Shown: positions 37,299 through 39,699 of the stretch, piece by piece
How the letters are laid out: the number at the start of each line of letters is the position of its first letter
Position numbering within the stretch: position 1 is the first letter of the stretch
IMG/VR virus record: IMGVR_UViG_3300032296_002019
Coordinates: 1-64,000 of that record
Strand: one strand, 5' to 3'
DNA from: a virus
Length of the DNA: 64,000 nucleotides
Made by a program: the position numbers and the translations under genes
Notes under the pieces: generated by a model
What the model saw: only the letters and a program-made list of their open reading frames with translations
What the model was told of the DNA's origin: nothing
Database searches by the model: none

Positions 37299-38210
37299 CT
37301 ACTTCAACCCTAATTTAGATGTCAATATGGCATTGTCATCTTGAATAGTAGTGCAGCTTGTTGGTGTTGGTCCTACCCACCATAAAGGTAAGCAGCTACC
37401 TCCAATAGACCCCATAATAGGCCCTGAATTTGTTGAGTAATCGCAAGGCTTATAAGTGTACACAATATTGCAATTTGCATCCCATTGTGCCTGGTGGAAT
37501 AGTCCAACCGTATGTCCTGATTCATGAGACACTGCTACTCTTATTCGGAGAGTATTAAATGACATAGTATTTGAAAACACGAAGCATTCAGGCGTTCCTC
37601 CGAACATAGAGCCAACATAAGCAATACCAGCCACACCAGGATATATTTCACTTGAAGTAGTAACAACTACTCTCATTCTTTTAGCTACGCTTGCTGCTAA
37701 ATAAACATTTTCATCTGTTGTAACAGTAATGTTATACTTAGCAAAATCTTTCTTAACACTATCGAGAATAGTTTGTATTTGTTCGGGTAATAATCCACTT
37801 GGTTGGCAATAGGTAGCAACACCATTATTCCAAGCACTACCAGCTGGTAGGTTATATCCATCAAAGTCAAGTAATAATACAGATGATACAGAAGGTTCAT
37901 TACCATATGGATATGGATCGCAAGCATCTCCTATACCATCTTTATCTGTATCCTTCTGATCAGAATTTCTAGTTCTAGGACAGTTGTCGTTTATATCCGG
38001 TACTCCGTCTTTATCGGAGTCTCTAAGCTTAGTAGATCCTCCTCCTGATCTAGCCATCTCGAATTCCTCAGCAGTTCTGAATGAATTATTGCTTAATGGG
38101 CCAAAGTCACAAACTTCTGGTTTAGACGGTTTAGAAGGGGATATTTCTTTTGTGCAAGTTGCTACGAGTAAAGATGCAAATGCTAGGATGAAAAGGATTT
38201 GTTTTTTCAT
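37299..38210 (-). CDS. lipoprotein metzincin protease with thrombospondin type-3 Ca-binding repeats
   Basis: Lipobox LVATC; DSDKDGVPDINDNCP..DTDKDGIGDACD; HESGHTVGLFH; Met-turn PIMG. Confidence 0.85.
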   Translation of the reverse strand: MKKQILFILAFASLLVATCTKEISPSKPSKPEVCDFGPLSNNSFRTAEEFEMARSGGGSTKLRDSDKDGVPDINDNCPRTRNSDQKDTDKDGIGDACDPYPYGNEPSVSSVLLLDFDGYNLPAGSAWNNGVATYCQPSGLLPEQIQTILDSVKKDFAKYNITVTTDENVYLAASVAKRMRVVVTTSSEIYPGVAGIAYVGSMFGGTPECFVFSNTMSFNTLRIRVAVSHESGHTVGLFHQAQWDANCNIVYTYKPCDYSTNSGPIMGSIGGSCLPLWWVGPTPTSCTTIQDDNAILTSKLGLK

Positions 38211-38296: not shown

Positions 38297-38327
38297 CGTT
38301 TTTCCTAACCTTAACCTACCTTTTGAG

Positions 38328-38837
38328 TGGAGATGGTGGGATTCGAACCCACGTCTCCGAAAGAGACAATAATACTAACGTCTCACATGCTTAGTACTAA
38401 TTAGTGTTCGTCTTACGTTAGCTCAACGAGTCATTTCGTAAGCTGGTACGATACTAATCTGCACCGTAAGAGGCCAACCGTATAGATCGGGGTCCACCAC
38501 CTTGTTTTATGACTACAAGGAAAACTTTTGTTAGTGTTTCGCCCCCTATATCACTAACTAAGACGCTCAAAGTCGGCTTTGACCATTAAGGGAGCCCTCA
38601 ATCCACAGTCCTTATTTAACGAGTCGATCGTGAATACTCAGAGTAGTTCTGTTCCTAGGTTACTCACCCGACGCGGACTAGGCTGCTACAGCGTAGTCGG
38701 CACCAACGAAGTCCATAAGATCTTCGAAGGTCATTGTTGACATTTCGTCATTTACTGTTTGGTATCTTCTAAGGCAGTATACCCAAATGCCTGCATGTAG
38801 TATTACCTCTGCATCCGGATCGATACCGGTCATCCCC
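38328..38837 (-). ncRNA. ssrA: tmRNA
   Basis: 5' GGGGATGACCGGTATCGA; 3' GACGTGGGTTCGAATCCCACCATCTCCA (G3-U acceptor pair); tag ORF 38749-38678 DEMSTMTFEDLMDFVGADYAVAA*. Confidence 0.92.
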
Positions 38838-38840
38838 ATA

Positions 38841-39023
38841 TTACTTCAAACTAGAACTGTCCGGTGTGTTCTTACTGTCAGGATCCTCAGCAATTATAGA
38901 GGAACCTATAGTAGGCGTACCAGGTTCTTTTTTAGACTTCTTACCGCTAAAAGCGATATAAAGAACAGCAGCCCCTATAAGACAGAGACCAACTACTAAC
39001 AATACAAGATCTAATTTTTCCAT
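38841..39023 (-). CDS. small single-TM protein
   Basis: TM followed by a basic/Pro-rich tail; stop 3 nt before the tmRNA 5' end. Confidence 0.6.
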   Translation of the reverse strand: MEKLDLVLLVVGLCLIGAAVLYIAFSGKKSKKEPGTPTIGSSIIAEDPDSKNTPDSSSLK

Positions 39024-39048
39024 TTTTTATAATTTTAAATAAAAAAAT

Positions 39049-39345
39049 CTGGCGGGAATACTGATTACCCGCAACCCCTGGACGGACCCCTTTTCACCCA
39101 TAGTCCACAAAGATGATCAGTCCTTGTGTTGAGACTAGCTGGATTGACTACCAGCAACGCCTGCGGAGATCAGTTGCAATTTCTTCGGCGTATCCAGAGC
39201 ACTGTTGGGTTGCGCATTCTACCCTTAGTGATGGTGGTTTTAACTCATCCGTCTGTGATACCCAACTCAACAGCTTTTCAGCTATCTCGCCAGTGCTTTA
39301 GCAGCTCTCAACCGCTTATTCAGCCACAGTTTTTCTTAAAAGAAC
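39049..39345 (-). ncRNA. unidentified ~300-nt highly structured ncRNA
   Basis: GC-rich island with no credible ORF; nested helices (see findings); promoters at 39351-39369; terminator hairpin 39051-39072 followed by a T run. Confidence 0.7.
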
Positions 39346-39350
39346 TTCTA

Positions 39351-39369
39351 CAAATGTATATATAAATAT
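39351..39369 (-). promoter_or_regulatory. tandem ATATTTATA motif and TACATTTG (-7) promoter
   Basis: ATATTTATATATACATTTG, then AAGTTCTTT leader. Confidence 0.6.
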
Positions 39370-39387
39370 CTATAATTTATATTTTTT

Positions 39388-39699
39388 TTAAATATTTTTT
39401 TTGTTGTAGTTATCTAAATGTTTTTGAGCCCTAGCACATAGTTCGTAATTTTCGTATTTAATTAGGTTTTCCATGTTTGTATCTAGAGTTTCATAGAAAT
39501 TGTAATAAGAAGCATGTAATGTTATTGTATGTATCTTAGTTATTATCTGGGCTATGGTTACTCTCTTTAAGTCATTCTCTATAGCATAGCATATCTTTTC
39601 TACAATAGCAGTAGACAATCCTTCTTCATGTTCTGCCATTATATTTGCAAAAGTCATATCATTATCTAGAACTTCTATTAAATACAAATCAGAATCCAT
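39388..39699 (-). CDS. protein with C-terminal UVR-like motif
   Basis: LIKYENYELCARAQK. Confidence 0.65.
   Translation of the reverse strand: MDSDLYLIEVLDNDMTFANIMAEHEEGLSTAIVEKICYAIENDLKRVTIAQIITKIHTITLHASYYNFYETLDTNMENLIKYENYELCARAQKHLDNYNKKNI

What the first reader, a model, noticed from the sequence alone, without database searches (positions are those of the whole stretch)
39049..39369. Unidentified ~300-nt multi-helix ncRNA with dual promoter and terminator upstream of tmRNA
Seen: a GC-rich island in an AT-rich genome with nested pairings (+ coordinates): 39128-34/39306-12 closing a multiloop; 39138-42/39151-55; 39157-61/39187-91; 39198-204/39291-97; 39204-10/39260-66; AGCT-GAAA-AGCT GNRA hairpin at 39272-83; hairpins 39106-28 and 39079-107; terminator 39051-72 followed by Ts. 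It is preceded by ATATTTATA, TACATTTG and an AAGTTCTTT leader. It lacks the hallmarks of RNase P, SRP or intron RNAs that I can recognise. Inference: a stand-alone structured phage RNA, possibly a new class, expressed early and late; the nearby tandem-WYL or degenerate-HNH proteins are candidate partners.
Basis: partly seen in the sequence, partly recalled or inferred. Interest (0 to 1): 0.85.

Follow-up and report, generated by a model that had tools for sequence, protein, structure and literature searches.

The report
Enlarged manA-like phage RNA gene
The flagged stretch is a real, intricately folded non-coding RNA gene of about 290 bases. It is an enlarged, uncatalogued relative of the known manA RNA, found in uncultured phage and aquatic metagenome DNA, usually among tRNA and tmRNA genes, and two of its loops suggest that copies bind one another.

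Summary
On the minus strand, 39334 to 39043, lies a structured RNA with a leader and a promoter-like motif up to 39369. I collected 76 distinct homologues from viral and aquatic metagenome contigs. On 52 representatives, 95.7% of cells pair and 45 of 75 pairs show compensatory changes, against 14-17 in slid controls. No reading frame is conserved.

It is not a new class. Rfam's manA model matches it end to end but below threshold (29.4 bits; cut-off 55.2). A model built from this family hits canonical manA RNAs end to end. The shared parts are the closing stem, the CUGAAUAA/UAA hairpin, a GNRA hairpin, the 3' hairpin with an 11-nt loop, and a loop-loop pairing. The differences are a lost four-way junction and a new 173-nt five-way-junction domain.

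It behaves as a gene of its own: 34 of 105 copies sit 2-8 nt between two tRNA genes and 22 follow a tmRNA. Three of the proposed helices are wrong, and the WYL and HNH partners are unsupported.

Two apical loops stay self-complementary while their sequence changes (UGCGCA/UGGCCA/UGUACA; UGAUCA/UAGCUA). This suggests self-assembly, as a 2026 preprint reports for manA, but it is untested.

This scan had already reported the same RNA type on other phage DNA.

The parts
39351..39369 (-). Promoter-like region: ATATTTATATATAC (the phage-group motif) overlapping TACATTTG (39358-39351), which fits the Bacteroidota -7 box TAnnTTTG.
   Evidence: Sequence. The motif ATATATTTATATAC lies about 10-15 nt before the RNA in many homologues that have no tRNA directly upstream. 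Exact ATATTTATATA occurs 3 times in the window, always on the coding strand just ahead of a gene or RNA. TAnnTTTG is seen only here and in L191. Function is not tested.
39334..39345 (-). 5' leader with a possible small hairpin (UUCUU..AAGAA). Rfam aligns it to manA's optional 5' hairpin. The start of transcription is not known.
   Evidence: cmscan alignment. The same leader is present in L191, the closest homologue. Other members carry different leaders.
39327..39333 (-). Closing stem P1, 5' strand (AAAACUG). It pairs with 39045-39051.
   Evidence: 6 of 7 pairs show changes on both sides across 52 sequences. The stem is A/U-rich and imperfect (74.7% of cells paired) and is perfect in the tRNA-flanked members.
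39295..39324 (-). P2: hairpin with the manA hallmark internal loop (GCU-GAAUA-AGCGG-UUGAGAG-CUGCU-AA-AGC).
   Evidence: 100% paired with 7 of 8 pairs compensatory. It matches the manA consensus aCUGAAUAA...UAAgGu. Most hits of this motif as a search pattern in viral contigs look like manA-type RNAs; 4 of 18 loci tested reach Rfam's manA cut-off.
39262..39293 (-). P3: two-part hairpin capped by the GNRA tetraloop GAAA (39276-39279).
   Evidence: The loop is GAAA in 49 of 52 sequences and GCAA in 3, so it is always GNRA. It stands where manA has a four-way junction that includes a GAAA hairpin.
39081..39253 (-). Inserted domain, absent from canonical manA. Stem GACGGAU/GUCCGUC, then ACC/GGU, closes a five-way junction of four hairpins.
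   Evidence: Helices 7-15 are 86-100% paired with many compensatory pairs. Coordinates.
39211..39220 (-). Loop A, AGAAUGCGCA, holding the self-complementary UGCGCA.
   Evidence: 49 of 52 sequences have a strict 6-nt palindrome here (UGCGCA 38, UGGCCA 8, UGUACA 2, AUGCAU 1) and 2 more have G-U wobble forms. Three other loops examined hold almost no 6-nt palindrome. A parsimony count gave about 10 changes of type on a tree.
39113..39121 (-). Loop B, ACUGAUCAU, holding the self-complementary UGAUCA.
   Evidence: 51 of 52 sequences have a palindrome of 6 nt or more. It is UGAUCA in one clade and UAGCUA in the other: four substitutions with symmetry kept.
39162..39186 (-). Loop C: a large, partly variable loop. 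Its CUGAU (39169-39173) is complementary to the loop of the last hairpin.
   Evidence: Columns 189/301 are U-A 46 and C-G 6 with no exception. Columns 188/302 are C-G 22, A-U 9, G-C 1 and unpaired 20. The other three pairs are always standard pairs (two never vary; one is U-G or U-A).
39052..39072 (-). Last hairpin: GCGGG, an 11-nt loop UAAUCAGUAUU, CCCGC. AUCAG (39061-39065) pairs with loop C.
   Evidence: 100% paired with compensatory pairs. It matches the manA consensus GugGG-UAuacAguAAU-CCcaC. It is not called a terminator.
39045..39051 (-). Closing stem P1, 3' strand (CAGAUUU), running into a U-run that ends at 39042.
39129..39132 (-). UCAA, a candidate pseudoknot partner of the first four bases, UUGA (39308-39311), of the P2 loop.
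   Evidence: 98% paired. One pair runs G-C 5, G-U 37, A-U 9. No pair changes on both sides, so support is weak.
38841..39023 (-). Neighbour, not part of the RNA: a 60-aa ORF with one hydrophobic helix, lying between the RNA and the tmRNA.
   Evidence: no Pfam match. L015 has a small ORF at the same place without the RNA.
38325..38837 (-). Neighbour: tmRNA gene, followed by a terminator at 38297-38274.
   Evidence: Rfam RF00023, 59.6 bits. Terminator scan.

Best explanation
Window 39334->39043, minus strand, encodes a stand-alone, stable, structured RNA of about 290 nt. It is an enlarged variant of the manA fold.

Shown here:
- Architecture: a terminal closing stem holds a five-way junction made of the CUGAAUAA/UAA hairpin, a GNRA-capped hairpin, a 173-nt inserted domain that is itself a five-way junction, and a last hairpin with an 11-nt loop.
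- Family: 76 distinct homologues with strong covariation, and no conserved reading frame.
- Placement: usually inside tRNA/tmRNA gene clusters.

Inferred:
- It is transcribed from the conserved ATATTTATATA-type motif. In this phage it probably runs on into the small ORF and the tmRNA.
- In the tRNA-flanked members its ends are set by the enzymes that trim the neighbouring tRNAs.
- It acts in trans, not as a switch for the next gene.

Most likely mechanism, inferred at about 50%: copies bind one another through two self-complementary kissing loops (A: UGCGCA; B: UGAUCA), helped by the GNRA loop and by the loop C-last hairpin pairing. This would give a defined RNA-only oligomer, as reported in vitro for canonical manA RNAs. 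What the particle does in the infected cell is unknown.
For: Real RNA:
- 14 sequences: RNAalifold gives 71 pairs, 33 of them compensatory. The curated fold is 97.8% paired with 36 of 76 pairs compensatory, and 0 of 500 shuffles reach this.
- 52 sequences: 95.7% paired, 45 of 75 pairs compensatory against 14-17 when slid, covariation score 0.447 against 0.11 or less.
- Not coding.

manA kinship:
- Rfam manA matches end to end at 29.4 bits, E = 1.2e-5, in the window, and at 19-33 bits in 15 of 20 relatives. It is the only family other than tRNA or tmRNA to hit these RNAs.
- The family model R1 hits canonical manA RNAs end to end at 30-45 bits. Rfam scores those same RNAs at 58-90 bits.
- The loop C-last hairpin pairing stands where the manA consensus has complementary loops (aCUgu / acAgu). 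The preprint 10.64898/2026.07.01.735769 reports an intermolecular L8-L9' kissing loop in manA.

Stand-alone gene:
- Of 105 copies, 42 have a tRNA and 22 a tmRNA within 150 nt upstream. 34 lie between two tRNAs, in the cases examined with 2-8 nt spacers.
- The closest homologue, L191 (90% identical), is followed by a tRNA, not by an ORF.
- L015 has the same gene order without the RNA.

Self-assembly:
- Loops A and B keep self-complementarity through sequence changes in 49 and 51 of 52 sequences; three other loops do not. Loop A type changes about 10 times on a tree.
- The tetraloop is always GNRA.
- manA RNAs form decamers and a 60-mer through kissing loops and a GNRA contact (preprint).
Against: - The transcript, its ends and its abundance are inferred.
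- No manA score reaches Rfam's cut-off of 55.2 bits.
- The canonical loci used for the reciprocal test were found with a pattern taken from the P2 hairpin. Part of that match is therefore by construction.
- Oligomerisation was not tested. 6-nt palindromes are common by chance (about 4.5 expected in 290 nt). Loop B shows only two types, possibly from a single event.
- The manA assemblies were made in vitro and are reported in a preprint. They use heterotypic loop pairs, not palindromes.
- In this window the RNA ends about 20 nt before a small ORF, so a local cis effect cannot be excluded.
- P1 here has an A-A mismatch and is A/U-rich.
Confidence: 0.72

Rival explanations
1. It is an independent RNA family that reuses a few common modules (an internal-loop hairpin, a GNRA hairpin, a terminal hairpin) and is not truly related to manA.
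For: All manA scores are below Rfam's cut-off. More than half of the molecule, the 173-nt domain, has no manA counterpart, and manA's four-way junction is missing. The reciprocal hits are on loci chosen by the P2 motif.
Against: The matches run end to end in both directions. They keep the order P1, UG, P2, GNRA hairpin, domain, last hairpin, P1, and the same loop lengths and loop sequences. The loop-loop pairing sits at the equivalent place. The pattern hits include manA-like RNAs of intermediate size, such as L098, L107, L117 and L128. Canonical manA is also found between tRNAs (L123).
Confidence: 0.13
2. It is a cis-acting leader or riboswitch. The last hairpin plus the U-run would act as a conditional terminator controlling the 60-aa ORF and the tmRNA downstream.
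For: manA was first proposed as a riboswitch candidate in 5' UTRs (PMC2864571). Here the RNA ends about 20 nt before an ORF, and no separate terminator follows it.
Against: Across the family, the next feature is a tRNA gene within 150 nt in 44 of 105 copies; some other members carry a dedicated GC-rich terminator. 34 copies sit between two tRNAs. The closest homologue is followed by a tRNA. The hairpin loop is conserved and pairs with loop C. The stem is only 5 bp with an 11-nt loop, and 4 nt separate it from the U-run.
Confidence: 0.06
3. It is a real manA-type RNA that works as a monomer or as a simple dimer and binds a protein, the ribosome or a small molecule. The palindromic loops would then be binding sites or dimer contacts, not parts of a larger assembly.
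For: No oligomer data exist for this family. Two 2-fold contacts need not close into a cage. Other large RNAs, such as OLE, form only dimers (PMC12286853). The function of manA in vivo is unknown.
Against: Two separate self-complementary loops, a GNRA loop and two further loop pairings give more contact points than a dimer needs. Relatives assemble into 8-, 10- and 60-mers in vitro (preprint). No protein gene travels with the RNA.
Confidence: 0.3

Closest known systems
manA RNA motif (Rfam RF01745; Weinberg et al. 2010, PMC2864571; assemblies in bioRxiv 10.64898/2026.07.01.735769)
   Same: - Terminal closing stem around a multi-stem junction.
- Hairpin with the CUGAAUAA...UAA internal loop.
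- GNRA (GAAA) hairpin.
- 3' hairpin with a 5-bp stem and an 11-nt UA..A.UA.U loop next to the closing stem.
- Complementarity between that loop and a loop of the preceding domain.
- Occurrence in aquatic phages. At least one canonical member (L123) also lies between tRNA genes.
   Different: - About 290 nt against about 190.
- Scores of 19-33 bits against a cut-off of 55.2.
- manA's four-way junction with its complementary loop pair (GUGGUG / ACCA) is reduced to one hairpin.
- manA's simple penultimate hairpin is replaced by a 173-nt five-way-junction domain carrying two self-complementary loops.
- It is typically not in 5' UTRs of protein genes; it behaves as a gene in tRNA/tmRNA clusters.
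- The likely host group is Bacteroidota, not cyanobacteria or gamma-proteobacteria (host is inferred).
ROOL and GOLLD RNAs (Rfam; Kretsch et al. 2025, PMC12286853)
   Same: They are phage- or prophage-encoded ornate RNAs of unknown function, often beside tRNA islands. No protein partner is known. They assemble into RNA-only cages through kissing loops and A-minor contacts.
   Different: They are much larger (about 580 and over 800 nt). There is no sequence or fold similarity: Rfam gives no hit to them here. Their assemblies are solved; this one is only predicted.
HIV-1 DIS and other palindromic kissing-loop dimerisation sites (from general knowledge)
   Same: A 6-nt self-complementary sequence in an apical loop. 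Different isolates carry different palindromes (GCGCGC / GUGCAC in HIV-1), so symmetry is conserved rather than sequence.
   Different: The biology is unrelated. Here there are two such loops per molecule, inside a large folded RNA.

Membership tests
manA RNA (RF01745) | Reaches Rfam's gathering score (55.2 bits) | tested here: not met
   Window 29.4 bits; L141 23.6 bits; 15 of 20 relatives 19-33 bits and the other 5 without a hit at E <= 1.
manA RNA (RF01745) | Closing stem followed by UG and a hairpin with the CUGAAUAA / UAA internal loop | tested here: met
   39295-39333. The consensus alignment and covariation (helices 1-3) agree.
manA RNA (RF01745) | 3' hairpin with a 5-bp stem and a conserved 11-nt loop directly before the 3' strand of the closing stem | tested here: met
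   39052-39072, GCGGG-UAAUCAGUAUU-CCCGC against the consensus GugGG-UAuacAguAAU-CCcaC.
manA RNA (RF01745) | Four-way-junction sub-domain with three hairpins, including the complementary loop pair and a GAAA hairpin | tested here: not met
   Replaced by a single two-part hairpin capped by GAAA (39262-39293). cmscan marks these model pairs as unmatched.
manA RNA (RF01745) | Short penultimate hairpin whose loop is complementary to the loop of the last hairpin | tested here: inconclusive
   The hairpin is replaced by a 173-nt domain. A loop in that domain (CUGAU, 39169-39173) pairs with the last loop (AUCAG, 39061-39065), with covariation.
manA RNA (RF01745) | Lies in the 5' UTR of a protein gene (proposed cis-regulator) | tested here: not met
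   Family context is tRNA, tmRNA or a terminator. In the window a small ORF happens to follow.
manA RNA (RF01745) | Forms pentamer-based closed oligomers in vitro | not testable with these tools
   Reported for five canonical manA RNAs in the preprint. No RNA 3D or assembly tool was available here.
RNase P, SRP, 6S, group I/II intron, ROOL, GOLLD, Y RNA-like | Any match of the Rfam model at E <= 10 on the 701-base region | tested here: not met
   Only manA, plus a chance sRNA hit in the A/T-rich spacer.
Intrinsic terminator (for 39051-39072) | G+C-rich stem, loop of 3-8 nt, U-run starting 0-2 nt after the stem | tested here: not met
   The loop is 11 nt, the stem 5 bp, and the U-run starts 4 nt after the stem. 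The scan does not call it.

The most novel reading that the evidence does not exclude
The enlarged manA-like RNA builds a kind of RNA-only assembly not yet seen. Two different 2-fold (palindromic) kissing contacts, together with manA-type contacts, would produce a ring, lattice or cage. Large phages would make it together with their tRNAs and tmRNA to enclose, concentrate or shield RNAs or host factors during infection.
Probability: 0.3. Interest if true: 0.8.

Novelty: new variant of a known kind. Interest (0 to 1): 0.6.

Why it matters
manA RNAs have had no known function since 2010. In 2026 they were reported to form RNA-only cages in vitro.

This family shows that the manA fold exists in a much larger form that Rfam does not recognise. 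It is widespread in aquatic metagenomes (76 distinct sequences found here) and usually behaves as a gene inside tRNA/tmRNA clusters, as ROOL and GOLLD do. That weakens the riboswitch reading of manA and strengthens the idea that phages make self-assembling RNA particles alongside their translation RNAs.

The two loops that keep self-complementarity give a direct, cheap test: mutate and compensate them, then measure the assembly state. The RNA is also a ready cryo-EM target. The alignment could seed a new Rfam family or an extension of RF01745.

Tried and rejected
- blastn against GenBank phages: no match.
- nhmmer with the single sequence against the first loci: nothing.
- The first two 16-17-mer scans gave almost only chance hits in coding DNA. 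One real canonical manA (L005) came out of them.
- Looking for the RNA at the same gene position in 80 related phage loci found none. L015, the closest relative by its neighbouring protein, has a 23-nt spacer there instead.
- Rfam manA over 50 related phage records was too insensitive: 14.7 bits even on the window itself.
- A scan of one genome for each of 185,579 bacterial and archaeal species (an exact pattern, so only a rough test of absence) gave one hit, L257. It is 42% identical and is not found by model R1, so I treat it as chance.
- An all-against-all column covariation scan was swamped by the two-clade phylogeny. Only the loop C-last loop pairing was taken from it, and I re-tested that separately.
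- Loop C also holds palindromes of 6 nt or more in 16 of 52 sequences. This is too inconsistent to claim.
- RNase P was considered because of GGGUGAAA...GCGGGUAA. I rejected it: no Rfam hit and the order of elements is wrong.
- Coding was considered and rejected.

Full report
**What is there**

The stretch is a G+C island of 0.43-0.48 in a genome of about 0.3. It lies in an IMG/VR virus record of 99.5 kb that CheckV rates 57% complete. All genes around it are on the minus strand.

In transcript order the region reads:
- a 103-aa ORF ending at 39388;
- the motif ATATTTATATATACATTTG (39369-39351);
- the RNA;
- a 60-aa ORF with one hydrophobic helix (39023-38841);
- a 513-nt tmRNA (38837-38325);
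- a terminator at 38297-38274.

Rfam at curated thresholds finds only the tmRNA and two tRNAs in the window. A permissive scan of 701 bases gives one meaningful hit: manA (RF01745), 29.4 bits, E = 1.2e-5. It runs end to end over 39344-39042 with about 200 nt of insertions and lies below the 55.2-bit cut-off.

**Finding relatives**

Sequence searches with the single RNA failed. The closest phage by neighbouring protein, L015 (75% identity), has the same gene order but only a 23-nt spacer in place of the RNA. BLAST over 80 related phage records found one homologue, L141, at 83% identity, about 24 kb from the shared protein and in a different context.

Words that were invariant between the two then opened the family:
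- 24 viral contigs;
- with a two-part pattern, 79 aquatic metagenome contigs;
- in one genome for each of 185,579 bacterial and archaeal species, only one hit, which is a chance match.

In all there are 76 distinct full-length sequences, down to about 60% identity.

**Structure**

On 14 sequences RNAalifold predicts 71 pairs, 33 of them with compensatory changes. My curated fold on 52 representatives, each less than 94% identical to the others, gives:
- 95.7% of cells paired;
- 45 of 75 pairs with changes on both sides, against 14-17 when the partners are slid;
- covariation score 0.447, against 0.11 or less;
- 0 of 500 shuffles as good.

The fold is a terminal stem P1 (39327-33 / 39045-51) closing a five-way junction that contains:
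- P2 (39295-39324);
- a GNRA hairpin (39262-39293);
- a 173-nt domain (39081-39253), itself a five-way junction of four hairpins;
- a last hairpin (39052-39072).

Single-sequence energy is unremarkable (z = -0.57), so the case rests on comparison.

The overlapping ORFs are not conserved. The frame has stops in 44 of 52 sequences and frame-breaking indels in 37 of 52. Variability is 0.25 / 0.26 / 0.22 by codon position.

**Relation to manA**

A canonical manA (L123, 90 bits) shows the Rfam consensus. In order it has an optional 5' hairpin, a closing stem, UG, a hairpin with the CUGAAUAA/UAA internal loop, a four-way junction with three hairpins (one capped by GAAA), a hairpin, and a last hairpin with an 11-nt loop.

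The window RNA keeps the closing stem, UG, the internal-loop hairpin, a GAAA hairpin and the last hairpin, in the same order. It loses the four-way junction. In place of the penultimate hairpin it has the 173-nt domain.

manA is the only non-tRNA, non-tmRNA family to hit this RNA. It does so in 15 of 20 diverse members at 19-33 bits, mostly end to end. Conversely, the model R1 built from the 52 sequences hits canonical manA RNAs end to end at 30-45 bits, E 1e-9 to 1e-13. One caveat applies: those loci were found with a P2-derived pattern.

I therefore file it as an enlarged variant that Rfam does not catalogue, not as a member by Rfam's rule and not as a new class.

**A gene of its own**

Of 105 copies, 42 have a tRNA and 22 a tmRNA within 150 nt upstream on the same strand. 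44 have a tRNA downstream. 34 lie between two tRNA genes, in the cases examined with spacers of 2-8 nt, so there P1 takes the place of an acceptor stem in a tRNA array. ARAGORN misses some tmRNAs, so these counts are lower bounds.

Many members with no tRNA directly upstream carry ATATATTTATATAC about 10-15 nt before P1. Exact ATATTTATATA occurs three times in the window, always on the coding strand just ahead of a gene or RNA.

Some members end with a separate G+C-rich terminator; the window lacks one. Here the RNA is therefore probably co-transcribed with the small ORF and the tmRNA. L191, the closest homologue at 90% identity and with the same leader, is followed by a tRNA. A cis-regulatory role is thus unlikely for the family as a whole.

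The RNA is accessory. Only 1 of 80 records sharing the HNH-like neighbour has it, and none of 4 complete ones.

**Proposed partners**

The WYL protein was not found in three complete RNA-bearing genomes. The HNH-like protein is present in them but equally in genomes without the RNA. Neither is supported as a partner.

The nearest cultured phages by that protein are the Flavobacterium phages vB_FspM_immuto, at 41% identity. Together with the TAnnTTTG box, this points to a Bacteroidota host. That is an inference.

**How it may work**

Two apical loops keep self-complementarity while their sequence changes.
- Loop A (39211-39220) is UGCGCA in 38 of 52, UGGCCA in 8, UGUACA in 2 and AUGCAU in 1. 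UGGUCA and UGGCUA occur as G-U intermediates.
- Loop B (39113-39121) is UGAUCA in one clade and UAGCUA in the other.
- Three other loops of similar size hold almost no 6-nt palindrome.
- On a tree built without these loops, loop A changes type about 10 times.

A 6-nt palindrome cannot pair within its own loop. The simplest reading is a symmetric kissing contact between two copies.

Three further features fit this reading:
- The tetraloop is always GNRA.
- CUGAU in loop C pairs with AUCAG in the last loop: U-A 46 and C-G 6 at one position, and C-G, A-U and G-C at the next.
- The P2 loop can pair with UCAA at 39129-39132, but this is weakly supported.

I numbered the Rfam helices in order so that the GAAA loop becomes L6, as in the preprint. 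On that numbering, which is my own mapping, these three contacts correspond to the L6 GNRA-receptor, L8-L9' and L3-L8' contacts that Ren et al. report between manA subunits.

I therefore put about 50% on a defined homo-oligomer. Its biological role is open. ROOL and GOLLD are the nearest functional parallels: phage-encoded RNAs near tRNA islands that form cages (PMC12286853).

**Earlier notes of this scan**

After my own Rfam hit, the look-up by sequence showed that follow-up agents had reached the same reading ('enlarged manA-like RNA beside phage tmRNA') on at least four other genomes. It also gave me the preprint. I re-derived the family, the fold, the context and the palindromic loops independently here. 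The finding is therefore a further instance of something this scan already found on other DNA.

**Limits**

- There are no expression data, no 3D modelling and no formal R-scape test.
- The promoter and the transcript ends are inferred.
- The assembly precedent is an in-vitro preprint.

Noticed in passing
L242:361-656 and L242:4337-4632: One 6.8-kb metagenome contig carries two copies of the enlarged manA-like RNA about 4 kb apart (R1 290 and 293 bits).
   Followed up: no
L154, L161, L202, L209, L226, directly upstream of the RNA: A conserved ~45-nt hairpin element (GUACUUAGCACAGUUCUCCUGGUUCACUGUCCCAGGCUAAGUC) lies between the tmRNA, or the ATATATTTATATA motif, and the manA-like RNA. Rfam reports no family on it in the two loci that were scanned, L154 and L161.
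   Followed up: no
L181:904-965 (-): A freshwater-1 RNA (RF02979, 79.9 bits) lies about 110 nt from the manA-like RNA inside a tRNA array.
   Followed up: no
window 38325-38837 (-): The tmRNA is 513 nt, with about 160 nt of insertions relative to the Rfam model. ARAGORN misses it. The relative L015 has a 358-nt tmRNA at the same place.
   Followed up: no
window 39369-39359, 42322-42312, 53657-53647 (-): Exact ATATTTATATA occurs three times, always on the coding strand just ahead of a gene or RNA. It is likely a phage-specific promoter motif, and it also precedes the RNA in many unrelated contigs.
   Followed up: partly
L016:8253-8468: A related phage carries a group I intron (82.8 bits) about 1.6 kb downstream of the HNH-like gene.
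   Followed up: no
L123:1288-1808: A canonical manA RNA (Rfam 90 bits) also sits between tRNA genes, 8 nt after one and 1 nt before the next. This fits poorly with the riboswitch reading of manA itself.
   Followed up: partly
L098, L107/L111, L117, L128: Other viral contigs carry manA-type 5' and 3' modules around different large inserts (about 320-400 nt in all). This suggests several independent enlargements of the manA fold. L107 lies next to a tmRNA.
   Followed up: no
window 37299-38210 (-): A lipoprotein-like ORF matches thrombospondin type 3 repeats above the Pfam cut-off and reprolysin-type metalloprotease models below it. It lies just after the tmRNA terminator.
   Followed up: no
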